Assembly: GCF_003704095.1 (NCBI RefSeq)
Contig: NW_020845843.1
Coordinates: 62,001 to 126,000 of the forward strand
Source: Pocillopora damicornis
Taxonomy: Eukaryota
DNA length: 64,000 bases
Direction: 5' to 3'
Both the position numbers and the translations under genes were made by a program. Shown piece by piece: positions 8,642-64,000 of this stretch. The notes below the pieces were generated by a model. That model made no database searches. It was not told the DNA's origin and was given only the letters and a program-made list of their open reading frames with translations. Numbering within the stretch: the stretch's first letter is position 1; each line of letters opens with the position of its first letter.

Positions 8642-9082
8642 GACATTAAGTGGAAGAGATCTACAGAAACTGACGCTAAATATACATTCCAACCTTAAAA
8701 ACCGTTGCGGATGAGACACGTAACAAGATTAAATTCGAACTAACAGATAAGAAACTGTTTGTTTCCTACTTGTGCCAGCAGCCGGAAGATCTCCTCTTTA
8801 GGGGTTAAAGTCCGTATGCAAATTTTTGCTTATCTCGCGTGGCCTTTGATTAATGCATGCGCCAATGCCACGCTAGACAACACGCTAACTTTCTTACTAT
8901 TTCTATTGAGGATTGTCCCTCATTCGGTCATCGAGTTGCTTTTCGTTAGTGTTAGATAAAAACGTTCGGCTCTTAAAACTCCATTAGTTCGAAGGTAGAC
9001 CCACAGTAAACTTAGCCAGATTAATGCTCGATAAAAAGTCATATTTACTTCTACCAACGTGAAATATTTACATTTCAGTCTA

Positions 9083-9222
9083 TCACGTGAAGGCCTCTTT
9101 GCCCACGTCTGTCACACAACCAGCCACAAATCACGTGGCGATATGGGATGAATGAAAACATTGCGACCTTTCGAAACGCCGTAAAAAATTAGCATTTTCA
9201 CAAAGTGAATAGGACCTATAAA
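9083..9222 (+). promoter_or_regulatory. Amt-A distal promoter: E-boxes and TATA box
   Basis: TCACGTGA at ~9083-9090, AATCACGTGG at 9129-9138 and TATAAA at 9217-9222; ATG at 9326. Confidence 0.65.
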
Positions 9223-9325
9223 GTACGTTGTTGTTTGGCGAGTGTTTCATCAGCCATTAAGGCCAAAAACACTTAAGTTCTTTACTATCATTTTCTGAGG
9301 AAGTAAAACAGAAGTAACAGTCGAA

Positions 9326-12300
9326 ATGGCCGACGCACAGTTTGAAAAACTTGAAGCCGGTTTTAAAGGATTAAGCGGGAACCTCGACCAAATGTTTTTG
9401 GTGATCATGGGATGCTGTATATTTTGTAAGTATAACTTCCCTTTTCACAAATATGGTCCTGGTGATATCCCTCCTACTGTTATTTGTGGCAGACCTTTAA
9501 CTCTTTCTCTTGGGCGTTATGATTAATTTTATTATATTTCGCTATGCGTGCGGACAATCTCGATTAACCCAAAATTCAACATGAATTATAAAATATTCAA
9601 ATAGTTCGCGCGCTCTGATTNNNNNNNNNNNNNNNNNNNNNNNNNNNNNNNNNNNNNNNNNNNNNNNNNNNNNNNNNNNNNNNNNNNNNNNNNNNNNNNN
9701 NNNNNNNNNNNNNNNNNNNNTTTGACCTGTTCTGTTTTTTACGAATCAACAACTCATATTTATTTTAAATGTGAATATATGAAAATCATAATGTGAAAAT
9801 TAAACAATCACGTCTAGTTACTTATTTTGTTGGATACGTTTGGTGTAATATGTTTTTCATGATTCGTGAACTTCACGAAATTGAATTTAACTCAGTGCGG
9901 CAGTCACGAGGCTTGCTACCAACAACTTAGGATCAAAACATTGACATTTCTACTGTAACACGTCAATTGCATATGGCTCCAGTCCTATTTAGTTCACAGC
10001 TAAGGTTTGCCAAGATGTCGTTGAAACAAAACGGTGGCTTCCTTTCCTCATGTACATCGCTGTATCGCACGTGTCACAAATATAAATCAAAACCCGTTTA
10101 CCCCTCAGAGCACGTAAGCAAGGAAGTAATGAAGTACGAGACACTCTTACTTAAGAACTGTACGAACAGTGAATCTCATATTCAGAGTTGGAATGATAAG
10201 GTAATATGTTTCTTTCGGTCTAACCTAAAATCATTTGGGCTTGAGATTATGTTAGTACGACGAAACTGTTTTCGCTTTGAAACAGAGGAAAAGTTGAAAA
10301 CTGATGTTTATCTCAAGAAACTATATCGTCACTTTGATGAACGCCACGCACATCTCATTGGACAATGACGACATAGTCCGAGTTCAAAGTCCAATCAATT
10401 GGGCAATTGTCCTCTTGAGACTTAAAATCTGAAATATCTACTTCGCACTTTGGAAAATCGACCCGAAGATTATCGGTCATCATATGCGATCATCTCGGAC
10501 ATGATGGAAATGGACTCACGTACACAACGAGATGAACAAAACTTCTGTTTGCCGAGCGAGAGTGATTGCGAGACTTTTGATGAGAAAGGATTTTTTAAGA
10601 TTCCATCAAATAAACTCGTTTCCGCAAGAAAGATTTTGCCACAAGAATCATTTGGAAAGGAAAGGGTCTTAGAACTTCGAATTGGTCTATGAAAATGTTT
10701 ATGGTGGTTGGGAGGGTGTATTTCAATCGTCTAAACTACATGAATGGATTAACTTTTAAAATCATTTTAACTTCAAAGACAACCCGCTTAGTGAACAAAT
10801 AAACAATACTACTTTTGTTTTTGCTTTGACCTGTTCTGTTTTGTTAAGTTTTCTATTTTTTTCGACTGGGTGTTCTTCGTTTTTCATGGACTTTGCTCGT
10901 CGTTCATACTATCATAACCAAACAATTCTTCCATAAATATCACGAGACACCTTATTTGCAAAACAAAGAGGAAGAAAAAGAGCTCACGTAGAAAATTACC
11001 ATTTTATGAAATGAGTCACCAGTGTTTCATCGTGTTCTAAATGCGTCCACTCCCGAGAGACTGCCCGTTTAATTACCCTTTAAAAAATTACATTCCACAT
11101 TCAATTCTCTCATTTGACTTCACGGCCTCGACTCTCTCTTTGAAGTCGTTTGCTCGCTGCCACTGAATAAAGCAAAATGAGCTTTGCCAGCGCAACTGAG
11201 TTTCTAGAGGTCAAGAAGACTTTAGCCATGTTACAAGGGAACATAGATCAGCAATTTTTGCTTTTAATGGGATGCCTCATCTTTTGTAAGTTCTCGAAAA
11301 TTGTCTAATAATGGAGGTGTTTACATGGACCTCCACAGTCACTGTGATTTAATACATGATATTTTATTTCATTCCATATTTGTGATAGGTATTGTGAAAA
11401 CAACTTACATTTCTCATTGCAGTTTTTCAGTCCCCTGTTCAAACTCACCAGTTGCAATTCTATCGGGTCAAACATTTTCACAAACTAACGCAGAAACGAG
11501 CGCATCTATTCATTTAATAAACTAGTCATGCACAATAACATTGGGACATAGAAGAGAATTATCCAGTGATTCCTATTTCCTATATGTTTTCTGCGGAAAC
11601 AGCTTCAAGCATCCAATCCGCGCTTGGTAGAGAAAATACCAAATGACGTTGCTAACAACAAGAAAGGAGCTCGGATTAAAACACTCAAGTGTGGGTGTTT
11701 TACTTGAAGCTACTTTAACCTCAAAACCTGTATCATTTCTGCGACTTTTGCTGACTTATAATGTTTTTTTTTTTGCGAGCAATGCGCCTAAACGAACTAG
11801 CAATGCAATTTTGTTTGGAAATAATTACAGAATGCAGAGCCACAAAGGTCTCTCTTGCCGGTATGCTTTGACAAGTCTAAGAATAACAAAGGAATAATAA
11901 TAAAAGGAATATGTGGTCCTGTATTATGTAGTTATTAATTTTTGGTATAAAATATTCAGGTTACTGAATTCATGTCAATATTTTGCAGTTATGCAGGCAG
12001 GATTTGCTTTCCTCGAGGCCGGATCAGTGCGATCGAAGAACACGACGAACATCCTAATAAAGAATTTCTTGGATGTGTGTAAGTATGGATTACACAAAGC
12101 CTCCCGTAAAAGAGTGAAAGTAATGATTTATAAGCATTAGTATTTGTGCCCTCTACGTCTAATTAGCAATTGCGAATCATTTGATTGTCTTTGAAACCGT
12201 GATGGATGAATTTTCAGTTCTATAGGCAGACAGCCAAGTCCTTAGCTTTCTCTCTATGTAAGGGTAAGTTTCTCTCGATCAAGTCGAGGTTTTCAAGGGG

Positions 12301-34911: not shown

Positions 34912-37839
34912 TGTTGATCACGGAAATATTGAAGTGCAAGGCTTTCGTTAACAATTTCGCAGCTTCTAAATTCAAGTGCCATATTTCGGTGGCAAATAAG
35001 AATCCACTCAAAATTTTCGACTATCATCCAGGTGATATATCTTCACTGCAGTGCATTTAATCTGTGAAACATATTTTCACGGGCCACTTGATCATTGGTA
35101 TCAAGATAAATTCTAATAAATTCGATAAATATCAGCAGACTGAAAATAGTAGTCGTTCGTATAACATTCATCACTCGCTGTAACTTCTCTGGTGACTTTA
35201 TATTGAGACAAAACTTATAGTTATGCATTGTCGACCTATGTCGGAGAAATGGATAGACTTTAAGAGCTTTTAGAGTACGAGGAGGTTATTTGGCCCGACG
35301 AATGAAAATAATTGTTTAAAAGAATCTGTTTCTAGGTTTAGGTAAAGAACGCTAGGAGACGTTTTTCAACTATACGCTTTTTGCACAGAAATACAATTTA
35401 ACCGATTAAATTACAATAGCTCAGTCTTTCCCTGTTGTGCAGATGCATAGCTCGGTATGCACGAGGATGTACGATTCCTTTATTTCATCAACTTCTGAAT
35501 TTCTTGTATACTTGCATTAAGAATAAAACGTTTCTAAACAGCACAGGAGATTCAGGTGTAGGTGGACTAAATATCCTCATCATCAAGTTTCAAGTCGTGG
35601 TTCCATGATTACAGTTTATTCATCTGCCAAACACTCCTTAGAAATGAAATGAAACGTCACTCATAATATAAGCCCACTCGCCATCTTAAATTCGCAACCG
35701 GGAGTTTCCTCCAGGAATTCACAGTTTTATACATTTGAAGTTTTTTTTTTTTTATCTTTTTTTTGTCCTTATCCGGAAACTTTGGAGCTCAAAAAGGGAA
35801 ATTTAGGCTTGACGTCTAATGATCCCTCCCGGTGTGAGAAGCTTAGGGTGTACTTCTTACAACTACCTGTTTGACATGATAAACATACGTAAACCGACAA
35901 ACTTAAACTAACACTTTCACAGAGATGAAAATTATTGTCCCGTACATATCTTACTCAAGCCCAAAATCTTCACTTCTTTTAGCTACATCGCTAAAGGTAA
36001 TTTTCGGAACATAAGGCATATGCGCAGATAGAAAATCATTTTTCAAGAGCTTTTGTTATTACATGACATTACATAATGTTGAATGATAGCTACTGGCACT
36101 TTTATGGTATGAAACATTCAAACTTAAATTTATACTTTCACAAAATTTCAGTCCAAATCCACTGGGTGTCAGCAGAAAAAGTTAAAGGAGATATAGGTGT
36201 AGTGATTACAAAAAGGTACCATACTCACAGTAAATAATGGACTCCCACGGAAAAATCAGTCGCCCAATGATTTCTCAGGCGTTAAAATTTGCAACCAAGT
36301 TACAGCCAGGTTCTTTAGACTTTGCACTAGATGTTAACTATTTTTCTTTTTGATTAAGAAAACCATTTTTTGTCAGCTCACATGAAATTTTTGCGATGGA
36401 TCCTACATATGACTAAACGAAGAAATCGGAGTGCCTCCCGAACAGTTCCGTAGACAAATAAAAGATTTAATATGTGAAAGCACAAGAGAAGCAATTGACT
36501 GCCGAATTATGCGGCGTCGCTTATCATTTCGTTCACGTGTTGCAGAGTGTTTTTCTATCTTGCATAAATAAAAGAGCGCGTGGACCCCAGACTTTGACCC
36601 TTAATGATACTGACTTCTAAGCTGTATATTTTGTCAAATGTTTCACTTGTTTTTGAGTCAAATCGTGAGAACAGCCAAGTGAAACGACTATAGAAATACA
36701 GCCCTTGAACACATCTAGCAGGGGCTGCGAGACATGAAAGATCTCCAGAAGATGGGAAGATGGTTACGCAGGGACTATCATATATTGCGGAACATGAACT
36801 ATTCTTTAATTTTGGCCAAGAGAACGTTACGACTGATGTGACGAGGTAGGTGGTGTAGTGGGCTCCGTGGACATATAATTATTAAATCCGGTTTGACCGG
36901 TTTTCGACAAAAGTGATTTCTCAAAACAACACGACAGTGATATGCTGATTTCTTTGTCTCAAGTGGATCACGGGTTTCAAGAGGGTTACAAATATCGAAC
37001 ACCGGCTATATTGGCTCTTATTAAGCAATCTAGCTATTTTAACGCATTTGTGTACTACGTGAAATAGGTCTTGCTTGTATCGATCGTTGGCGAGTGGCAC
37101 AAAACAGGACACTTTATATGTATTTCCCTTTTGATTTAAGTTTAGAATGCAAGTTATTTTGACAATCTCTCCATAAAAACACGGAAGTTGACATTTAGGC
37201 TCTTGAGCGTGTAACGATAAAGATACATCCGATAGCTTGGAATCCCAAAATAAAGTACAAAAATGCAAAGCAATTCCACCCTCTATAAAACTGCTTCGTT
37301 TTTTCTGAGAAGGTTCAGTGATAGATTTGTCGAAAAGAAACGTTTGTAAACTCACATGTTCCATACAATTTACGTGTAGTATTGCATAGTGAGTCGTCGT
37401 ACACAATGCTGCGAATCTAACCTAGCCGCCTGGCCACTGCAATTCGATTAGATACATATTTATTCTCTATTAGCCTTTTCAGCGTCTCAATGCGTCTAAT
37501 TTGGTCCCTGTTGGTGATCAAGGGCAGATAATGAAAAACCTTACTCAATTTTCCGACAAAACAACCGAAACATTGATAAATAGAAATAAAGGAATACAAA
37601 CAACAACTGATAAGTGGAAAATCATTCGAGAAAAAGATACGAAACAGACGACTCTGTAGGACGCATCGTTTACATAATAATGGTATTTCAAGCAAAAGAT
37701 AAGATCTTTTCGATAGGAGGCTCAAACCAAACGCCAGAAACAGAATCTAGAAAGGAACGGAAGCAGACATTTTGGCTCACCAACTTCTGCAAAACAACAA
37801 TTCATCAATATTTGAAAGTGATGTTATAAATTCGAAAAC

Positions 37840-39458
37840 GATGAAAAATGCCTGTTACATTCCATGAGGTTTTACGTGAGCTGAAGCTCTTACGATCTGA
37901 CGCATCACCTGGCCCTGACCTAATTCTAGCAAATTTTTTAAAACCTATTGCTGAATATATTGCGAGCCCTCTAACAGACATAATAAATTAATTGATAGAA
38001 TTATGCGACTTTCCAGATAAATGGAAGCAAGCTTGTATAGCTCCAATCCAAAGTTGGATAGTCCTCAAGATAACAATGATTTTCGACCAATCTCTGTATT
38101 GCCTGTTTTGTCTAAAATCTACGAGAGGCTTATTCACAACCAAGTTGATGAGTTTTTGGAAAATCACCATCTCCTTGAAGATAACATTTCTGAATTTAGG
38201 AAAAGCCACTCTACAACATCTGTTCTATTAAGTATACAAGATGACATATTGAAAGCGATGAACCGGAGCGAATGCACTTTGCTCGTCTTAGCTGACTTCT
38301 CGAAGGGTTTTGACACTGTAAAGTAAAGGTCTGTCCTTGAGAAAATGAATGCTCTTGGATTCTCAAGGTCATACCTTAAATGCACTGTCAAATACTTTTG
38401 TGAATGACAGCAGTTTGTTCAAATCGACGACCGTATTTCAAAATCTGTTAGCATTAGCTTAGTCCCACAAGGCTCAATCATGGGTCCTCTCATTTTTAAC
38501 ATATATATTGCTGATCTGCAAGGGAAACTTGATTGTGCCTGCCATCAAAATGCTGATGCATTTATCAAGCATCGAAGCCTGGTGAATTTACATCTTGCAT
38601 TACCTTAGTGTAACGTAATGTGGATAAAATGCAATGCTAGGCGAACGAAGCGAAAGCTAGCAAAGCGAAGTACTAGTTATTATCTTCCAGTAAACTTTCT
38701 TCTGATCACGAACTTAACAACACTGACATTGACCTAAGAGTTGGAACAACATCTTCAGAGCGTGTATCTTCGGCAAAACTTTTAGGTACCTACATTGACC
38801 ACCACCTTAAATGGGAAGAAAATGTTAAGCAAGTCTCAACCTCTTGCTATTGCACTCTTGGAATCTTAAAGAAATTTTCTTTCATTTAATGATCATAAGC
38901 AGTTAGTTCAGGCCTTAGTACTTTCCAAGTTGTATTATAATTGTGTTTTTTATCATTACATACCACATTACTTTATTAAACGCCTACAAAGAATTCAAAC
39001 AGCATGTGCGAGATTTGTTGTAGGTAAATTTGTTGAAAGAGAGGATATCATAAAGCTAAATTGTTACCCGTTAAAGAACATATTGAATGGTAGTTGTTAA
39101 AGTCATTTCATAAGGCGATTGGCGATGAATGAACGGCCAAGTAACTTGCGACTAAAGCAATTTGAGCACAATCGAACTCTGAGGTCCAGTGCAGCTATCA
39201 GTGCAGCTTAAAATCCCACTGGTATCACACATTTATCAAGATCAAGCTGCAGGTATTTTACCTGAATGTTCTCTAAAATTACTTTTCAGCATTTGATGAA
39301 AAAGGTCAAAGATAACCTTTCAGCTCGATGTAGTTTTTACTTTACATTTAGCAGATGAATTTTTAAGCAGATGTATTTTGCAAATGAAGAGCCACCTTGT
39401 AGAAATGTTGAATAAAGCCATTACTATTATTATTATTATTATTGTTATTATCATTATA

Positions 39459-39488
<30 letters not shown>
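37840..39488 (+). mobile_element. Degenerate, 5'-truncated L2/CR1-group LINE (RT domain) with a (TTA)n tail
   Basis: Peptides PGPD, FPDKWKQA, DFRPISVLPVLSKIYER, FRKSHST, ADFSKGFDTV and VPQGSIMGPLIFNIY with stops and frameshifts. The 3' end AATAAAGCCA is followed by a TTA microsatellite at 39421-39488. Confidence 0.85.
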
Positions 39489-39490
<2 letters not shown>

Positions 39491-39749
39491 GCGAGAAGCT
39501 AACACACTTCACATGAAAAAAACGCCGAATAAGGAGCATTGACACCATTCATGTCATTTTGTGCTGTTTCAGGGATAATGACACTACTCAGAGGCTATGT
39601 ATTTGAACAAAAATGTAATTGCCAATTTACAATAGTAAATTACTGTATTATTGCTATGTGGCCATGCAGAATATTGTTATACAATGATATCTATTTTTAT
39701 ATCGCACATTTAAATTTACGGAAATAGTCAAAAGGTCCAAATAGAAGCT

Positions 39750-40012
39750 GATATGTAACGAATTTAAGAAAATTAACGACACTTTTAGAATTCAAAAACA
39801 TGTTTCGACAGTTCTTCTGTCATCTTCAGTTCTGGATGATACAAAGTACAAAGTTGAATTTACAATGTGTAACAAAATGCTGATTGGACAAAACAAACAA
39901 TAATAACAGAACAATGTATGCATTTACAAGGAAAATTGTAAATTAACATGATAAAGTTGATGAAAAAGAGTAGGTTTCTCCCACTGAATGTGAATAGCTT
40001 CTTCGATTTTAA
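39750..40012 (-). mobile_element. Penelope-like element 3' fragment with a hammerhead motif at 39794-39832
   Basis: Colinear with 13820-13980 and 25690-25900. Minus strand reads GAA-CUGAAGA-U-GACAG-AAGAA-CUGUC-GAAAC-AUGUU. Confidence 0.8.
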
Positions 40013-42668
40013 ATAGCCTTATTTTAGGAAAGTGTAGTTTTCGTACGTATGACTACATTGCAATCAAAAGCAGCCATTTTCGTATAATCAGTTGTTTTAG
40101 TATCTCTATTTTACCTTTTGTTTTGTGGAAGTGACAAATGTAGTCTGTTTTTGTTCATAGTAGTTGCACTAAGTTGATCGTAGCAATGATGGCGGTCAAT
40201 GTTACATTTCTTAACTACATACAGCTTACACCTATTTTCATAGTCAGTGTTGCAGGAAGGGCTAGTTTCCTCTCTGGGGACTGTAGCCCACACTGCAGGG
40301 CCTTATCCCTATCTCTATATGAGGCATGAAATGACCTGGAGCATTGCTCAAACACCTGGATGGGATGCTTCTCCATTTTAGGCCTGTCGAGTATTTCGTG
40401 AGGTTTGACTGGAAGTTTGCAGTTACTCATGTAAACTCCCGAGTGTAAAGAAGTGGTGTATCTTACTCAGGAACACCTTGTCTCCGGCGTCGCCTGGCAA
40501 ACGGGGAATCAAGTGAATAAAGAGCCTTCGAGGGCATTATAATCCAATGTTAACAAGCACAAACTTGTAGCTTTAAAGGATGGGTAACAATCGAAAGAGT
40601 TAGGTTCTTAGATGGAATCCACATCAGCTGTTTACAGCTGTTTACATCTGCTATGTAGAGAAACTCAGCTGGAAATTTTGTTCATTAAATATTATTATTC
40701 GGCTGCCTTTGAGAAAAATCTAGCCTTGAGGAGTCATGCAGTGATCCAACCTTTGATAAAAGAAAGAATGCTTAAGAAGACCCGAAGACACAAGGCTTGC
40801 TATTAGTAATGCATTGTATGTTTCCTTAAAGTTCAGCGAACCTTTACGATGTAAACCATGCAACAAAAACTGACTTTAATAACGCTCCATTGAGCACAAA
40901 CTCTGTATCATTATTCCCTCCAGGTGGCAAGTGTGTCCAAACTTGCATTACCCTGCAAGATCTTGGGAATACTTCTCAATATTAGTAAATGCAATTTACA
41001 TTTGAGTTTCCTATCTTCTATTATATCATAACCAAAACATTTATTATGCCAAGTTTTCAAAGGTGCGATTTAAAATTCGCTTTCAAAATTATGTGAGTAC
41101 ATCAGGATCATGGTCGTTCTTAATTTTCATCAAACACAGTCGCTGGTCGCTAGTTACCAGAGATGATATTTTCGATTCCTCTGTTTCGTAACTTTGGAAG
41201 CAGTGACCAAAAAACCTCAAACGCGAGCCACAACACTTAGAGTGTATGAAGCTCATAGTTACTTTTGGGAACAATAAAATCTTGAAGTAGGCAAATACAG
41301 TCTTAAAATCTATTGTCAGTCCATCTTATTCTACAAAGTTCTTATTTTTTTCTTCATAGTTTGAATACTAGTGATTTTATGCCTAAATTTGCATCTAAAT
41401 GCAAGTGGAAAAACATTTTTCCTTTCATATCGACAGGGAATCTAATGCACCTAAAATGTAATCAGGGAGCGACTTGTATGAAATGTTTCGGGGAGTAATT
41501 TCACAAAACAGGAATAAATTTAAAGCTAATAGAGATTGTCAATAGCAACGAGGAAAGACGTCATTTCTTCCTTCAAATAGGATACCTGAAAGCACTGATC
41601 AATCTAAAAGATATGTACGTGTTTGAATATTTCTTTACGTCAGCTTTTGAAGACCTGCAAACGTGTCTCGTGGGCAAATGAGAGGCGCTTAGGGTTGTGC
41701 TGCTAATCAGCGGACAAGTATAAACAAAAGATGCTACGCCATCGAGCGGATACCACCAGATTTTTAAGATAATAAAGTTAGCCACCTTTCGAACAAGAAA
41801 ATGAATCTTTTAACTGGAGATCTGTTATATTAGCTTCGACCAGCAACAGATTGTAAAACGGAGACAATTACGACAAATTCTGTTGACGTAACGTGAAACT
41901 TGAGAGATGCCAATATTACGCGCTATTCCATCAAGTACAAATTTACATACGAAAAAGAGCTACGTAACAGGCTATCGTACAACAAAGGTGATGAACGACT
42001 CAGTCGTTAGCTACTTGTAAACTATTCTGATGTCTGACAGTTCTTAACAGTCAACACAACAGCTGCTCCCCCACCAAAATCTAAAGTTGTGCTGAATAAC
42101 AACTTTGTGATAAGATCACGTTTTCCGTTTCGTGTCAAGAGATTGAGTCCAATACAATGCCTCCCTTTTTTTTTCAATTTGAAACACTGTGATTGGTTCA
42201 GATCAAAAATCAAGCGGAAAGGTATTACTGTGTTTACACAATGACGCTTATTTTATGAAACTAAAATAAAATCGTTATACCGTGAAGCCGGTTTCACCGG
42301 TTTACGATATGAACGCTAACCCCACCTAAAACAGTTCCAAATAAGTTTTCTAGGGCAAAAAGAAAAGACTTTATCCTAGATCCTCTGTCTCATTGGCTGT
42401 CTATTTTTGCGAATAGGATTTTCCTGACTCCTACACCGTTCGCACTTTGTAGTGGTAAAAATTATTAGACCTTTTTACAGACTATAATATAGTTTTTTGC
42501 GTGTTTATCAAAAGGAAGGATGACCTTAAATTCGAAAGGAAATAAATGTGACGGCGTAGAGTAGAATTGACCAACTGTTTCTATTTTCTAAGTAGTGTGT
42601 GGGAACTTTGCATTCTTGAGGTTCAAAGTCTGTATTCTGTTTTGCTCGTGCATGCCGGAGAACAAATA

Positions 42669-42760
42669 AATCACGTGGCCAAGCTTAGCGACAAAACACC
42701 GACAGTTACATAATTTAATACGTTTTGTTACCCCAGTCATTGCACGGCTATCAATATAGA
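42669..42760 (+). promoter_or_regulatory. Amt-C promoter: E-box and TATA-like box
   Basis: AATCACGTGG at 42669-42678 and TATAGA at 42755-42760; ATG at 42840. Confidence 0.6.
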
Positions 42761-53604: not shown

Positions 53605-53815
53605 TTAACCCTTTAACTCCCATGAGTGACCAGGACAGAATTTCTCCTTACAATATCAATACAATATCAACCACATAAGTAACAAGAATATGGAAAAATA
53701 TCAATTTGGGGATAATTATTCGATCCAATACTAAATTCTCTGAACTAACATTATAAGAATTGTATGGTTGACAGTAAGGAGAATTACAAATTTGATCTGG
53801 GAGTTAAAGGGTTAA
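53605..53815. mobile_element. TTAA-bounded MITE with perfect 18-bp inverted termini, just upstream of Amt-D
   Basis: TTAACCCTTTAACTCCCA ... TGGGAGTTAAAGGGTTAA. Confidence 0.9.
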
Positions 53816-53959
53816 ATAGGGATCCCATGCTTGATGCCTATAATACACCAAAGGTTGCAAGATGAATCTACTGCGATATAAATTTTGTTAAAAAAAATAA
53901 TTAACAAAACTCTATTATATCAGTTAAAATTACTTCCGTCAGGAGAAATGGAAGTCAAA

Positions 53960-56900
53960 ATGGCAACAATGTCAGACCTACAGATTTTGCAAGACAACCT
54001 TGACCACTTCTTTCTGATCATTACAGGCTGCCTCATTTTTTGTGAGTATAGTTTTCCATCTCTTTTCTTTAAAGTTTGAGATATCCATGCATGAAGTGAT
54101 TGTTTTACATAAAAGAATATATTTTTTAGGAAGAGTTAAAACTGTTTTCTTTGCTTAAATAAGAGAGAAAAAATGGTATGCTGACTTAGGCACCTACTCT
54201 GCCTCTGGGATCACTATATTAACAGTATACAAATGAAACCTGACACTATAATGAATACATTGAACTTGAACTTAGGGGAAAAATAATTAACCCTTTAACT
54301 CCCAGATCAAATTTTGTAATTCTCCTCACTGTCAACCATGAAATTCTAATGTCGTATTTCAGAGAATTTAGTATTGGATCAACTAATTATCTCCAAATTG
54401 AAAATTTTCTATATTCTTGTCACTTAATTGGTTGACATTGTATTGGAGAAAGTTCTCACAGATTGCAAAAGTGACAAACTTGAAAAATGCAGGCAAACTT
54501 TTCCAGGATGGAAATGTAAGAACTGTCAGATAATCCAAATGGACTAAAAATGTAAGCAAATGTTTCCAGGATGGACAAATGGTGTCCAGGTGCAGTTCCC
54601 TTAAATAGATCCCCTGCATTACATATGCCTAGTCGCATTTTAAAGAAACCCTATAATCAGATTGATAAATGACAGAGAAAAACAACTGAGGACAAGAGAT
54701 ATATGACATCTTACCCATTCAGTGGTTGGTAGTTAATGGCTGATCTGTTTTTTTTTCAGTTATGCAAACAGGATTTGCTTTTCTTGAAGCTGGCTCAGTA
54801 AGATCAAAGAACACAACAAACATTCTGATCAAGAATTTCTTGGATGTTTGTAAGTAGTGATGATAGAAATAAGTCATTTACCAGTATCCAAAGAGGTACA
54901 AAAGTTCAAAAAAGAAAGATGGCATCTCTCTTATGCATCAGTTCCTCAATCAGATCAAAATTTGACTTTCATGATTTGTTTGTTCTTTTATTTTCATTCC
55001 AAGAAGTTAACTTTTATACTGTACAGCCATCTTTAGGTTAGATTTTCAATAGCCAAGTGAACCTCTACACATGGCAATTCCCTGAGTAAATAATGTGTCT
55101 TGTTTTATGTCTTACAGTTATTGGTGCAGTGGCCTATTGGCTGTTTGGGTATGCATTTGCATTTGGAGCAGAAAGCAATGGCTTCATTGGACACAAGTTT
55201 TTTGCACTGGCAGATTTACCAGCTGACAAATACTCTCACTGGTTTTTCCATTTTGTTTTTGCTGCCACGGCAGCAACAATTGTCAGTGGTGCCATGGCAG
55301 AGAGGACAGAGTTTAAGGCTTACCTGTTGTACTCTGTGTTTCTCACTGGTAAGTTCCAGGCCCTACTCCTTATTTCTGATAGGTGGCACTTGCATCTCTA
55401 GTTTTCAACCTTATGGTGGCAAGCTGTTGTTATATTCATCATTCTTCCTTAGGCTTTGTATACCCAGTAGTCACTCACTGGGCTTGGGATGGAAATGGTT
55501 GGCTGTACAAGGGTGTGGATTACACTAAAGACAATGTAACCTTGTCTGTTACATTCCAGGTAAGACAAGACATGGAAGTAGTAAGATAATTTAACAGTCA
55601 CTTAGACACTAATAATGGCTGTCATTAAAGGTCACTGAAACCTGATCTTTTGCACATATATCTGTACATACCAGTCCACTACTGTGCTATTCTTTTCTAA
55701 ATCAAGGATTTTGCTGGCAGTGGGGTTGTTCATGTTCTTGGTGGTACTGTTGCCCTAGTTGGAGCAACTGCTGTTGGACCAAGAATAGGAAGATTTGTGA
55801 ATGGTGTCCCTGTTCTACTTCCAGGCCATACTGTACCAGTGAGTGAAAGACTTCTTAAGCTTGTCATTTTCAAGGGTGGATTTTGCATTTAAAGACTGGT
55901 CCAGTTACTGTGCAGGACTCTTAAAATCTCAACCATGCTTTTGCATTTTTTTTTATTCTAGCAAGCAGCTCTTGGAGGATTCATCCTGTTTTTTGGCTTC
56001 CTGGCATTCAATGGTGGCTCACAGGCAGCCATTGCTAGTGCAGGTGATGCAGATGCTGTAGCATTGTCCGTTGTCAACACAATCCTTGGAGGTGAGACAG
56101 TAACTATTTAACTATGAGCCTTATTTTCTCTCCATTTCCAGTTCACTTGTCAACACAGTTCTTGAAGGTGAAACATAATAACTCTTTACCCAGGAGCTTA
56201 ATTTTATTTCTGTTTTCATCCTCTTTGCCAAAAGAATCTAATGTGGTTCTCTTTTCTCATTTAGGAGCTGCAGGTGCCCTAACTGCCATGATCATCAAAC
56301 GTCTGGGCTATGCAGCAAAGTACTGGAGCTTACTTTTCACCATTAACGGCGGACTTACTGGAATGGTGCAACACATTAGTTAGATTATAAATATGTGTAG
56401 GCTTTGAATATTAAGAGCACCTTCCACATGAAGCCCCAAAGAGAGTTTGAAATCGCTATGAAATAAAATAATTCTCTGCAACTTCAAGCGCCGATTCATT
56501 ATTTTTTAAGCAATAAAGATGGTTAAAAATATGGAATTCAAACCGGTACTCTTTCTACCAATTTGAGTAGAGAGGGTTTTTCATCAGTTTGTGAGCTAGT
56601 TGTTAGCTGTAATTCATGTGAAACGCCATCTGTTGTTCCATCAGCTTCTTTTTAAGTCTAAAAGGAGTTGCATTGTGTTTCAGATCGCAAAACAAGTACA
56701 CCTGAAGGGCAGTACATACAATGAGTTTCTAGAAAGAAAAAAAATAGCAATCAATATCTGCCTGATTTATTGGAAGGGACCATGCTCTTATAGATGGGTG
56801 GATCATGCCCATTTTGGCTGGCTTACTGTACTGATCAGATGTTTTAACCTTATCAATTCCATTACAAATGATAACCTTTGCATTTGTTTCTTAGGTGGCC

Positions 56901-58410
56901 TTATGTGCAGGTTGCAATGCTATCCATCCTTATGCTGCTTTTTTCATTGGCATCATTGCTGGAATGGCCTACGTTGGATGGAGCACTCTTCTGATTCGTT
57001 TAAAGATTGATGATCCACTGGATGCTGTGGCAGGTGAGTTGCTCAAATACTGATCCACCTTATCAACTCGTGTTCCATTTTCCAGCCAACTTATTGTGAA
57101 AAGCATTGTTTGGCACTCCCTAATCTACACACCATGCTTTTCAATTGATTGCTGTAAAAACCAAATCTATGCTGTTTTGGACCAATAAAACCATATCAAG
57201 GAAACTTTAAGTAAAACGTGTAAATGGTCTGATGCAAGGGCCAGCATAAGGAAAGGGATCAAAAGGGCATTGGTTTTATTGGGCTGAAGGTTTGTTGCAA
57301 GTATTGTGGATCAATCACTTACAAAATCAATGCAATGCCAGATTACTCTTGGAAAGCAACTGAACTGTTCACCAGTAACATTGTTTGACTATTATGTACA
57401 GTTCACTTTGGTGGTGGTTTCTGGGGTGTGCTGTCTGTTCCCATCTTCAACACAGAATCTGGAATATTCTATGTTGGAAGCGAGCATTCATTCTGTTTGT
57501 TTGGATGGAACCTGCTGGGAGTGCTTGCCATCATGGCCTGGTCTGCAGCATTGAGTTTCCCCATGTTTTTCATGTTGCGCATCTCAAAGCAGCTTCGTGT
57601 CAGTGCAGAAATCGAGCAGAAAGGTAACAGTCTGGACCAGATACATCAATACATCAATTATTCCATGGAGTTTCATGCGTAAAATTTATATTTTCCTACA
57701 TGCAGACACTTTCCAGGTGTAGAGACCTCATGCACCTCTTGGTTACCATACAAGTTGGCAACTTTTAAATTCATTAGTGGCTTTGCATTTCTAAAGTCTG
57801 ACAGACATAGGTTATATACCTGTTAATGTAAGTCAATAACATTAATATGGTTTTTAATGGTCTGAGAGATACAGGTAATACATCTGTTACATCTACTGGG
57901 GTGATATGCTGATAACATTTATGCCATATTTAAAGGTCTGACAGATAAAGGTAATACCCCTGGTACATCTCCTGGGTGATATGATGATAATAATGCCCAA
58001 GTTGACTCATCATCATCTGCTAATATATATCAATTTTTATATACTCATTTAGAATGTTTTTCCTTTCCATGAGACCCTGGTTGAAATGTGTGTCTGTTAT
58101 GCTATTTGTGGACTTTTAAGGAAGAATTGAATACATTTAATCAAACCTAAGCTTGTTTTCAAGACAGATTATAGCTACAGGTACTTCAGTAATATAGAAT
58201 TGTTGGTTATCTTTCTACCTGATGATTTGAGATCAGCTACAGTGGCACAGATCATATCTATGTTTTTTTTTTTACAACATTCAATAAAACAAAACTTAAA
58301 ATTTTTTGTTTGTCCTAGGTCTTGATATTCCCAAACATGGCGAGCCAGCATACCCATTGGCCAGTTATGGAGACGGTTGGTCAGAGTTGCCACATAATCC
58401 ACAGTCCTAA
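53960..58410 (+). CDS. amt: Ammonium transporter Amt-D, ~441 aa; C-terminally truncated duplicate of Amt-C
   Basis: Exons 53960-54041, 54760-54849, 55118-55348, 55453-55559, 55707-55838, 55962-56091, 56265-56365, 56895-57033, 57402-57623, 58319-58410. Open frame, both His residues kept; ends WSELPHNPQS*. Introns align with those of Amt-C. Confidence 0.92.
54287..54452. mobile_element. Partial second copy of the 53605-53815 MITE, in inverted orientation, in Amt-D intron 1
   Basis: TTAACCCTTTAACTCCCAGATCAAATTTTGTAATTCTCC... is the reverse complement of the right half of the first copy. Confidence 0.85.
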
Positions 58411-60277: not shown

Positions 60278-63200
60278 CTACGATAAATTCTCGAATTCTC
60301 CTCCAAGGCCGGCGTCTGCCTCAAGCATGTTCATGAAAACTGACATAGTTTCTTCGCTTTGTTCCATGGGAGCTTCCATTGACTCAATTGCATTCTGCAT
60401 TCCAATCAACTGTTCCAACAAGTGTGCCTGTGACAGCTGCAGCTGATTATCCAAACCAGCTCCAACCGCATGCGAGCCCGTTCTATCGGTAGACGGAACT
60501 CTTGGGGCATTTGGTGCGTTCGGTGAAATGTCGTCAATGTCTATCGTACTCACACCACCCGTATTAGATGGAAGACCCTCATTCAGTCGATTAAGACCTA
60601 GTCCGAACTGGAACTCCCTGAGATAATAGAAAGTAAAAGGCGAGTCACCTCTTTTCCAATTCATTTTTTAAATTACTGACGAGGAAATGAATAGCAGCTG
60701 AAAGAGAGAAGTACCATTCAGATCTCGGGAGTTTGAGAGTTCAGAGGGAAAGGGCCTGTTGTTAAATTAGGCGCTCGTCAAGAGTGCATAGCTCTTTTAC
60801 GACAAACACTCCTGACTCCTCAATATTACTGGCTCCTAATTGAAGACAACCCTAATGTACGGGCAGAGAAATAACCTCGGCAGGACTTCCTCCCTTTTCG
60901 AAACTTCACCTTAATGCAAGCAAACTTTCATTGGAATAATTGTTTGATGGTTCGATGCTGCCACACTGTTTCGTTTGCTTGTATTATCAAAAAAATAGAG
61001 ATGGTTTCAAAATCTTACTGTCACTAGAGGGGCGGGGTAGTCCTTCAAAAACAAGTTCTTTTTATGAAAAGGACAGTACCCACCTGTCTTGTGTTTCCTG
61101 GTTTTGAACCTGTTCGGCCACAATGGCCCCAATACGACTCGCACCTGCATTTCCCACATTAGCCATAGCAACGTCAAGTTCATGACTCTTCTTGCCAGCT
61201 GACATGGACCCTAAAATGGAGGAATTAACGTTTAATTTGCTTCCTCATAGCTTGGAAGACAAACTTAACGAAAACTGATTACTTTCAACAGGAGAAAACG
61301 TTTTAAATTCATTAAAAACTTCTGATTACAATAAAGGTAGAAATTATGACTATTTAGTGCCAATTCCACCGCCCAAATTTGGTCCAACACGCTTCATATG
61401 CCGACTAAGTTATCTAGCCTTGTAGGAAGGTTTCCATATCTATGCCATGATAACTCAAAACAAATAATCTGAAACAACACAGGGCGGTAATAGTTCGAGG
61501 GATGGTACGAGCTGGTCTGAGCGTATTGTAGTCAACGACTTACAGAACTTATTTTAGGATTGCAAAAAGAAGACTTGCAAACGACAAATAGGTCATGACT
61601 GCAGGCGGAGAGTGAAGTTTTGAGACATAACTACACTAACTACACTCAGCGGAGGAAAAGAGAAATCTCGTCCTTTTGAACTGACATTTTCAAGAAACCC
61701 CACTGCACAAGTAAAATAATATTCGTAGAACCTAATGAAGAAACTACATTTGATAAATGATGCAACTCAAAACGAGGAAAGAAGAATGATGAGTTCCTGT
61801 CTTTTTTTTTGTTTGTTTGTTTTTTTTAAACAAAAATATTTTCTTCCTTGAATTCACCGCTGGGCCTCGACTTGATCAACTTGACCAAGTCCCCCTAGGT
61901 CGATTTCAAAGATATTGAACATAGATTGCTGAGAGATTTTCCAGAGGATCAAATGCAAATTGAGAGCATTTTCAAACTTATTGAATGCTCAAAAAAAAAA
62001 AACTAAGTGATACACAATCGTAATCTTGACAAGAGCTAACCTGCATCTAACTGCTGCCCACGTTTCTTCAATACTTCTAACACTTGCTGTACACTCGTCT
62101 TTCCAGCCATACTGTCAGTTTGAGCTGAAGACCCAGATCCTACACTACTTGCGAGCTGCAAACTGGTGCAGGACACATCAGACGGAGGAGCTGCCAGGGG
62201 CAATGAAATTGACTCCAAACCCCTTAAGACAAAACACTAGTCATTATGGCAACCAACAATATCATGATTTGCTTGAGAGGCCTCTCCTATCCTTCATAAC
62301 AGTTTCATGGCGGAAAGTGAAGTCGAAGCCCGCACAAAGTTATTTTTTTCAGAATCAGTTATCTCCGGAACTCTCGCTGATTCTGCCCCTGGGTTGTTGC
62401 AAATTCATTCAGCATCTAGGCTTGTGATACTTTCAAATAAAAGATCCCGAGGCGTGAGACACAATTGAAAATAAAATACCCCTTCTTCGTTCGTGAAAAA
62501 CTTTTTTTTTCCACTAGGAGTCAAATTCTCAGGGAAAATGAGCACGTGAAAAGTAACGCTGCATACTATCTTAAAACACCCTCAACAATAGAGAAAAAAA
62601 AAGATCTAGTATGCTATACTCACGTGACCACAGTGTTGACGCAAACTAGAAACTCCAGTTCCTTTGACCAGGGATTTCGGAACACATTCGAACAAGTTCG
62701 TAATGGAAGATAGTGACCTGCCTTGCATCGAAACCTGTAAACATCAGTTGAAACAATCTCCCCCTGAAGAGCCCGACGATGGGAAATTGCTATTGAATTA
62801 AGGTCTTCTTGATGAAAATATTCATAACCAGAACTTCCTATGAGCTCCTGAGGTAGATAGCCAGTTATGGCGGTAGTTCTGCAAAAGGCAAAAGGTTCAG
62901 TCACCTTTAGGGCCAATAAAGTTATCATGACGGAAATTATCCCAGTATTCAGTGGCATGAAGTGAAGCAATGTGGAGTACTGCTGTGCCCCCTTTTACAA
63001 AAAGTTGGTCCAGTACAGTATTTCCCTCTACATTTTATTAGCTTTTCCTTACACCTATTTAAACCTCTTGAGTAGAAAGAAGCACTGTAAAAGTAGTGTC
63101 TTGGCCAAGAATACAACACTTTGACCCCAAGGTTCAAAGTCTGCAGCACTAACCACTTAGTCACCACATAACTAGTGTCAATGTTCTTTCACTAAAATCC

Positions 63201-63688
63201 TTTGTAAAAGGAGCTAGTATACATAAATTGAAAATCTTCCCAAATAAGCGAGCAGAATTAACCTGCTCTTGTCTTCTGATGCTCAATACACTACCAGATT
63301 TGTTCCTGAAATCAAATCAGAGTCAAAATTGACAGAACACCTTTACTTTAATTGTACCTTTACATTCTACACCAGTCTACTACAAAGAAATTCCACCAGT
63401 ATACCACATATGTATAGGAATAATTTCCCAGTCAAGGAGAAGGGAGAGGAGGCTAGATGTTTCCAACTCACCTCTGATCAACAAAGATAAATTTTCCATC
63501 TATACTGTGACGTGAGATGAATTTTTTGGCAATTCCTGGTTGTGAGAAATCTGTTGCTTCATCATAAATTGTTTCCAGTCTTCCCACTGCTACAAGACAA
63601 CTGAGATTTCTAGATTCGTTGTCTTCATCGTCCTCATCAAGTGAAGCTCCAGAGGGCGGCCATGATTTAAGGTATCCTGTACAATGAA
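60278..63688 (-). CDS. BMAL1: BMAL1/Cycle bHLH-PAS clock transcription factor, 3' portion (end of PAS-A, PAS-B, TAD); the 5' part lies beyond the window
   Basis: Minus-strand exons 63688-63472, 62878-62624, 62222-62041, 61210-61084, 60617-60278. BMAL-type peptides GYLKSWPP, NLSCLVAVGRL, SRHSIDGKFIFVDQR, YLPQEL..YEYFHQED, NPWSKELE, AGASRIGAIVAE, and the TAD LEADAGLGG. Confidence 0.93.
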
Positions 63689-64000
63689 CTAATTCACAAA
63701 ACAAAATAAGGGTTGGAATAATTAGTAAGAAATTTCAGCATTTCATTTGTTAGTTAATAGACAAAGGAAGAAAGAGAACTAAGTAGCATCATACAATAAA
63801 ATGTGTATTGACTGAGTTAGGTCAGGCCAGTCATGCCTTACAGACCAAGTGTATCAAGTAAGATATTTACCTGTACAGCCCTCCTACTCGGTCAATAAAG
63901 CCATTGTACCATATAGTTTAACTGTGTTAAGAGGTGGGCTCTTAGCTACACATAGCCACTGCATACAATTCATATGTGTCACACCCACCTACGACATATG

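What the first reader, a model, noticed from the sequence alone, without database searches (positions are those of the whole stretch)
9129..42678. The same AATCACGTGG E-box in three Amt promoters, in an array next to the BMAL1/cycle gene
Seen: the exact 10-mer AATCACGTGG occurs at 9129-9138, 28731-28740 and 42669-42678. Its CACGTG core lies 194, 194 and 168 bp before the ATGs of Amt-A(1a), B and C, each upstream of a TATA-like box. The surrounding promoter DNA shows no similarity I can align. I saw no other copy of this 10-mer in the window, and the array ends tail-to-tail with BMAL1. Established: CACGTG is bound by CLOCK:BMAL1, but also by USF, MITF/TFE and MYC/MAX; ammonium flux is central to cnidarian-dinoflagellate symbiosis. 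Inference: a co-regulated, possibly clock-gated or TFEB-type ammonium-transport module.
Basis: partly seen in the sequence, partly recalled or inferred. Interest (0 to 1): 0.7.

Follow-up and report, generated by a model that had tools for sequence, protein, structure and literature searches.

The report
Conserved switch on coral ammonium transporters
Four of five neighbouring ammonium-transporter genes in a reef coral, and matching genes of other corals, keep the same short DNA element just ahead of the gene, likely the docking site of a regulator that sets ammonium uptake; that regulator is untested and is more likely nutrient-linked than the body-clock protein encoded next door.

Summary
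AATCACGTGG sits 194, 194 and 168 nt before the ATGs of Amt-A, B and C. A fifth paralog outside the window (Amt-E) carries the same 10-mer at -208, a held-out confirmation. Amt-D lacks it and is the least expressed of C and D. In other corals, 25 of 36 Amt1 first exons with enough upstream DNA carry RTCACGTG at -138 to -241; the 11 without are a separate alternative-exon class (7) or divergent animals (4). The conserved unit is RTCACGTG, not the exact 10-mer. In Orbicella and Acroporidae these appear to be alternative first exons of one gene, so the element was kept through repeated promoter duplication. Glutamine synthetase and GOGAT also have a proximal TCACGTG. The cycle/BMAL1 gene lies inside the array, not at its end, and the linkage is shared with Acropora, Montipora, Oculina and Orbicella, but nothing ties it to regulation. 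The binding factor is unknown: a USF/TFE/SREBP-class protein is favoured (about 0.5) over CLOCK:CYCLE (about 0.3); Amt-C also has a conserved D-box, which keeps a light or clock input open.

The parts
9129..9138 (+). AATCACGTGG element, Amt-A exon-1a promoter (core -194)
9082..9090 (+). second E-box ATCACGTGA in the Amt-A promoter (core -242)
9326..9425 (+). Amt-A coding exon 1a, spliced to 11989 in 4 of 4 RNA runs
11177..11285 (+). Amt-A alternative first exon 1b; no CACGTG in 400 nt upstream; no joint listed in 4 RNA runs, but a P. verrucosa isoform uses it
   Evidence: P0071
9326..17602 (+). Amt-A, intact 10-exon Amt1 gene, 514 aa
28731..28740 (+). AATCACGTGG element, Amt-B promoter (core -194)
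28928..34911 (+). Amt-B, intact 10-exon Amt1 gene
42669..42678 (+). AATCACGTGG element, Amt-C promoter (core -168)
42705..42714 (+). D-box-like GTTACATAAT; TTACATAA starts 34 nt after the E-box core, as in locus L048
42840..49147 (+). Amt-C, intact 10-exon Amt1 gene, well expressed
53605..53816 (.). high-copy MITE-like repeat with terminal inverted repeats, at -355 to -144 of Amt-D, where the E-box would lie
53960..58410 (+). Amt-D, intact, closest to C, no CACGTG in 400 nt upstream, CpG-depleted, low expression
60278..64000 (-). 3' part of the cycle/BMAL1 gene (continues beyond the window; Amt-E with the fourth AATCACGTGG lies upstream of it at G000:C2478:133448-139788, element at L002:3991-4000 minus)

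Best explanation
The 10-mer is a conserved E-box (consensus RTCACGTG[G/A]) in the promoters of coral Amt1 first exons that likely binds a constitutive or nutrient-responsive bHLH-zipper factor of the USF/TFE/SREBP class, USF most likely, and would drive ammonium-transporter expression together with glutamine synthetase and GOGAT. Shown: the element, its position, its retention in four paralogs whose flanks no longer align, its presence in other corals, and that the exons behind it are transcribed. Inferred: it was copied with the promoter-plus-exon-1 cassette at each duplication (whole genes in Pocilloporidae, tandem alternative first exons in Orbicella and Acroporidae) and kept by selection; it activates rather than represses; the factor's identity; action in gastrodermal or alga-hosting cells. 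Individual copies add other inputs (a D-box in Amt-C), and Amt-D and exon 1b lack the element and so likely serve another cell type or condition. The neighbouring cycle gene is likely old linkage without regulatory meaning.
For: Held-out paralog E has the exact 10-mer at -208; it is the only shared word of 7 nt or more among the A, B, C, E promoters. Fourfold sites differ at 38-45% among A, B, C, E; 47 of 148 are identical in all four, giving about 0.004 for neutral survival of any 10-mer in 400 nt. 25 of 36 metagenome loci with 250 nt or more upstream carry it, background 2.5% per 150 nt; T at -1 in 21 of 21 representatives, A at -2 in 17 of 21. It is not a general promoter word: ATCACGTG 130-200 nt before AAAATGGC occurs 17 times, about 21 expected by chance. 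GS has TCACGTG at -167 (reverse strand) and -446 and CCACGTGG at -494; GOGAT at -202. C is expressed far above D: about 105 against 0.5-1.6 reads at the 3' ends in X21, contig depth 4684 against 163 in X15. A 5' T separates Myc from Max and USF prefers 5' GT; SREBP contacts ATCAC (PMC8431614, passages). Stylophora alga-hosting cells express USF1, MITF and ammonium transporters (PMC8162421, passages). Orbicella, Montipora and Acropora isoforms share C-termini but differ in exon 1.
Against: No binding data. The flank is mostly ATCACGTG, not USF's GTCACGTG (4 of 21). T at -1 does not exclude CLOCK:CYCLE: two of three cryptochrome E-boxes here also have it. No USF gene was among the 37 of 71 bHLH matches I read. 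The regulon rests on two genes in one genome; 0 of 3 GDH and 0 of 3 Amt3-type genes with a readable start have the site, and its conservation at GS and GOGAT was not tested. The 25 loci collapse to 16 clusters and two alignable groups, so they are few independent lineages. The C-D expression contrast is one pair, confounded by a repeat insertion and CpG depletion, in whole-tissue runs of related species. Which Amt genes alga-hosting cells express was not seen.
Confidence: 0.5

Rival explanations
1. The element is a CLOCK:CYCLE site and, with PAR-bZIP D-boxes, gates ammonium transport by time of day or light.
For: Canonical CACGTG core. Amt-C has TTACATAA 34 nt after the core, at the same offset as in L048, whose exon shares KTPI with C; Amt-E has ATTACGTAAT at -98. 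Amt-A has two E-boxes. Cryptochrome E-boxes here also carry 5' T. 'Ammonium transport' is enriched among night-peaking genes of symbiotic Euphyllia in light-dark (PMC9481131, passages). cycle is linked to Amt1 in several corals.
Against: Sites are single, unlike the three E-boxes at 13-nt period in the cryptochrome promoter. Within 400 nt a D-box occurs in only 2 of 4 own E-box promoters and 3 of 25 foreign ones. No 'ammonium', K03320 or PF00909 in seven searched supplements of an Acropora tenuis time course, including its rhythmic host list (PMC11271600; low power, 6-h sampling). The Euphyllia enrichment was not found in darkness or without symbionts and uses human gene names, so it need not refer to Amt1. 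In Nematostella CACGTG is enriched only in pacemaker genes, not in rhythmic outputs (PMC11093582, passages).
Confidence: 0.3
2. The element is a CLEAR-type MITF/TFE site tying Amt1 to the lysosome or symbiosome programme under mTORC1.
For: TCACGTG core; 6 of 21 representatives read TCACGTGA. MITF gene present (L087). MITF is expressed in alga-hosting cells and proposed to act on E-boxes in Aiptasia (10.1101/723312, passages).
Against: No Amt site is GTCACGTGAC. Three of four V-ATPase promoters carry CATGTG-core boxes and none has CACGTG in 700 nt.
Confidence: 0.12
3. The motif is a neutral leftover of duplication or a chance match.
For: The genes are paralogs, so the copies share ancestry; the motif was first chosen after inspection; ATCACGTG is 1.7-fold enriched genome-wide over its reversed control.
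Against: Held-out copy in E, unalignable flanks, diverged fourfold sites, and fixed position in other coral families.
Confidence: 0.04

Closest known systems
Class-B E-box bound by USF1/2, MITF/TFE, SREBP, MLX, MAX (PMC8431614, passages)
   Same: CACGTG core with 5' T, single proximal site, purine at -2
   Different: Mostly ATCAC rather than GTCAC; 3' flank G or A; no binding shown in corals
Circadian E-box of CLOCK:BMAL1/CYCLE targets; E-box plus D-box module of zebrafish per2 (module recalled, and named in earlier finding e1-9201043)
   Same: Same core; Amt-C pairs it with a D-box at conserved spacing
   Different: Single site; D-box missing from most copies; no rhythm data for these genes
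CLEAR element GTCACGTGAC (10.1101/723312, passages)
   Same: TCACGTG
   Different: Flanks differ; V-ATPase promoters of this genome use CATGTG cores
Variable first-exon arrays with one conserved promoter element per exon, as in clustered protocadherins and UGT1A (recalled, no call)
   Same: Repeated promoter-plus-exon-1 cassettes splicing to shared downstream exons, each keeping one element
   Different: Two to a few short exons, an E-box rather than a CTCF site, and whole-gene duplication in Pocilloporidae
Coral Amt1 tandem array; SpiAMT1d (PMC10236652 passages and figure legends; Capasso 2022 not held)
   Same: The Amt1 expansion in Pocilloporidae is published
   Different: No promoter element is mentioned in the passages read; which paralog is AMT1d was not determined

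Membership tests
Class-B E-box promoter element | CACGTG core | tested here: met
Class-B E-box promoter element | upstream of a transcribed first exon | tested here: met
   exon 1a spliced in 4 of 4 runs; C spliced; start sites not mapped
Class-B E-box promoter element | conserved above its flanks | tested here: met
Class-B E-box promoter element | bound by a bHLH protein and needed for expression | not testable with these tools
   needs EMSA, ChIP or reporter
CLOCK:CYCLE target | clustered E-boxes like the cryptochrome reference in this genome | tested here: not met
   single sites; A has two 48 nt apart
CLOCK:CYCLE target | accompanying D-box | tested here: inconclusive
   2 of 4 own, 3 of 25 foreign; exact spacing shared by C and L048
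CLOCK:CYCLE target | rhythmic in constant darkness, CLOCK-dependent | tested here: inconclusive
   absent from Acropora rhythmic list; Euphyllia tables not informative for Amt1
CLEAR / MITF-TFE site | GTCACGTGAC or the motif seen at V-ATPase promoters | tested here: not met
USF site | 5' GT flank | tested here: inconclusive
   T 21 of 21; G 4 of 21, A 17 of 21
USF site | USF gene present and co-expressed | tested here: inconclusive
   not among 37 of 71 bHLH matches read; reported in Stylophora and Euphyllia
MYC:MAX site | no T 5' of the core | tested here: not met
   T invariant; rule from PMC8431614
Amt1 ammonium transporters | PF00909 domain, intact ORF | tested here: met
BMAL1/cycle | bHLH closest to BMAL1, PAS domains | tested here: met
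   88 bits to BMAL1 against 75 to ARNT; PAS; named cycle; a separate ARNT-like gene exists (L083)

The most novel reading that the evidence does not exclude
Stony corals run host nitrogen capture (Amt1 uptake, GS, GOGAT) from one ancient E-box regulon; Amt1 diversified by duplicating the promoter-plus-exon-1 cassette, so that copies add a light input (D-box, Amt-C) or drop the element for another tissue (Amt-D, exon 1b). This would name the cis-element through which the host sets nitrogen supply to its algae.
Probability: 0.25. Interest if true: 0.75.

Novelty: new member of a known kind. Interest (0 to 1): 0.5.

Why it matters
Host control of ammonium is a leading explanation for how corals limit their algae, but the transcriptional switch is not known from the papers I could search. 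A conserved, precisely placed site with natural negative controls (Amt-D, exon 1b) gives a small target for reporters, footprints and CRISPR, and separates clock, lysosomal and lipogenic regulators in one experiment. The element type is ordinary; the value is in making the question testable.

Tried and rejected
Searching for a wider regulon with ATCACGTG-N130-200-AAAATGGC gave 17 hits, 2 of them Amt-B and C; none of the others shown gave an interpretable gene set (L093 was not printed). Other Amt/Rh loci: 12 examined, no proximal site at the 3 with a readable start; an AATCACGTGATT 522 nt before an Amt3-type exon could not be placed relative to a start. Flank conservation between own and foreign promoters was significant only for E (P 0.02, four tests; A 0.40, B 0.16, C 0.16), so a longer composite element is only suggested. 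Synteny could not be read from metagenome contigs; accession numbers were used instead. A homolog search with one exon-1 peptide found nothing. The clade of L021 and L048 could not be fixed, so conservation of the element in complex corals is not shown. Aiptasia and Nematostella supplements gave no Amt rows. A weak Pfam hit between B and C (below cut-off) was not called a gene.
Full report
Observation. The 10-mer is at 9129, 28731 and 42669 and nowhere else in the window (0.02 expected). The cores lie 194, 194 and 168 nt before ATGs at 9326, 28928 and 42840. The genome holds 322 copies in 234 Mb. Named proteins on a contig of the same length as this one identify it as Pocillopora damicornis.

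Locus. The order is an MSH4-like gene (MutS domain; the name MSH4 is my reading), Amt-A, a tyrosine phosphatase on the minus strand, Amt-B, Amt-C, Amt-D, cycle/BMAL1 on the minus strand, Amt-E on the minus strand and a choline-kinase-like gene. All five Amt genes are intact with ten exons of matching lengths. The bHLH exon matches BMAL1 better than ARNT. BMAL1 is therefore inside the array. Amt-A has two alternative first exons, 1a and 1b.

Held-out test. It carries AATCACGTGG at -208, followed by TATAAAA. Among the 400-nt promoters of A, B, C and E the only shared words of 7 nt or more are parts of this 10-mer; 0 of 5000 random quadruples and 1 of 5000 intron quadruples share a 10-mer. Fourfold sites differ at 38-45% between these genes, so neutral survival is unlikely (about 0.004). 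Amt-D, the closest relative of C, has no CACGTG in 400 nt; a high-copy repeat sits at -355 to -144 and the region is CpG-depleted. D is nonetheless intact and has a Stylophora counterpart, so it is not simply decaying.

Other corals. A pattern for the end of exon 1 found 44 metagenome loci. Eight have under 250 nt upstream and were set aside (one, L033, still shows AATCACGTGA). Of the other 36, 25 carry RTCACGTG at -138 to -241 against a background of 2.5% per 150 nt. The 11 without are seven loci whose promoters cluster together and whose peptides resemble exon 1b, and four divergent ones. L038 (with the site) and L039 (1b-type, without) lie 3.7 kb apart on one contig, repeating the arrangement of Amt-A. 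None of the foreign promoters aligns with ours. They reduce to 16 clusters and two alignable groups, so they are few independent lineages. The first A of the 10-mer is not conserved; T at -1 is invariant in 21 representatives and -2 is always a purine.

Architecture. Orbicella, Montipora and Acropora Amt1 isoforms share a C-terminus and differ in exon 1; L037 and L051 match Orbicella isoform X1 exactly and L032 resembles X2. Many foreign loci are thus likely alternative promoters of one gene. The inference is that the promoter-plus-exon-1 cassette was duplicated repeatedly and kept the element each time, apart from the 1b class. Whether L021 and L048 come from complex corals is unresolved.

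Expression. Exon 1a splices to exon 2 in 4 of 4 RNA runs; no 1b joint is among those listed, with five joints not shown. B-type and E-type joints appear as cross-mapping reads. C is far above D at the 3' ends. These are whole-tissue runs from the same or close species, mostly contigs, and cannot give start sites or precise levels.

Which factor. References within the genome differ from the Amt sites. One cryptochrome promoter has three E-boxes at 13-nt period; 2 of 9 photolyase-family starts have CACGTG within 400 nt. Three of four V-ATPase promoters have CATGTG-core boxes and none has CACGTG. GS has three CACGTG within 500 nt and GOGAT one at -202; three GDH genes have none nearby. The site is not a general promoter word (17 found, about 21 expected). 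A review gives 5' T as separating Myc from Max, 5' GT as a USF preference and ATCAC as an SREBP half-site (PMC8431614, passages). SREBP-, MITF-, MAX-, MYC- and CLOCK-like bHLH exons are in the genome by my reading of their sequences; USF was not among the 37 of 71 matches read. Stylophora alga-hosting cells express USF1, MITF and ammonium transporters (PMC8162421, passages).

For the clock. Against: most copies lack a D-box; no ammonium transporter appears in the searched Acropora tenuis supplements (PMC11271600, passages and seven supplements); Nematostella rhythmic outputs are not enriched for CACGTG (PMC11093582, passages and supplements); the Euphyllia enrichment is limited to symbiotic light-dark samples and uses human names (PMC9481131, passages and a truncated supplement).

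Linkage to cycle. Using record lengths and accession order as a proxy, cycle and Amt1 share a scaffold in Stylophora, P. meandrina, P. verrucosa, Orbicella, Oculina, four Acropora species, Montipora capricornis, Porites lobata and P. lutea, with near-consecutive accessions in Acropora and M. capricornis (XP_044184562 and XP_044184563 in A. millepora). They are on different scaffolds in Desmophyllum, Porites harrisoni and P. evermanni and further apart in P. lobata. An A. cervicornis model fuses cycle with a choline kinase domain. The linkage is old, but I did not measure background microsynteny, and a factor need not lie near its targets.

Verdict. A real, selected promoter element of a known kind (about 0.9 that it is functional). 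Best mechanism: a USF/TFE/SREBP-class activator shared with GS and GOGAT (0.5); CLOCK:CYCLE 0.3; MITF specifically in a CLEAR-type role 0.12; neutral 0.04. Ten searches found no prior report, with the gaps listed. Interest 0.5.

Noticed in passing
L064 (G000:C3822, about 565058-565084, minus): Cryptochrome promoter with three CACGTG at 13-nt period, 232-258 nt before the ATG; a likely clock target.
   Followed up: partly
G000:C37:12680-38161: Tandem cluster of six cryptochrome/photolyase-domain genes; the first has an E-box, several CACGTT and a D-box-like site.
   Followed up: partly
L068, L070, L072: V-ATPase c, G and F promoters carry CATGTG-core (TCACATG) boxes within 120 nt of the ATG; subunit D does not.
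   Followed up: partly
L067 and L088: Glutamine synthetase and GOGAT promoters carry proximal TCACGTG; GOGAT also has ETS-like CCGGAAG sites and TTACATAA at -436.
   Followed up: partly
window:52800-58410: Amt-D and its upstream DNA are strongly CpG-depleted (o/e 0.10-0.16 against 0.6-0.7 in the other Amt bodies), with two copies of one MITE-like repeat flanking exon 1 in opposite orientation; D has a shortened C-terminal tail shared with Stylophora.
   Followed up: partly
P0036-P0038, P0045-P0050, P0096-P0102: Orbicella, Montipora and Acropora Amt1 isoforms differ only in exon 1, pointing to tandem alternative first exons.
   Followed up: partly
L020, L026, L032, L049 and Amt-E promoter: AGAACA about 15 nt before and ACAAAGAAAA just after the E-box recur; weak support for a longer composite element.
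   Followed up: partly
L005:868: Palindromic AATCACGTGATT 522 nt before an exon of an Amt3-type gene; start not placed.
   Followed up: no
window:18600-24300 minus; 38000-39100 plus: Receptor-type tyrosine phosphatase gene between Amt-A and B; degraded reverse-transcriptase fragment between B and C.
   Followed up: no
P0001: An Actinostola gene model of 1350 aa holds several Amt repeats, suggesting a tandem array in an anemone too.
   Followed up: no
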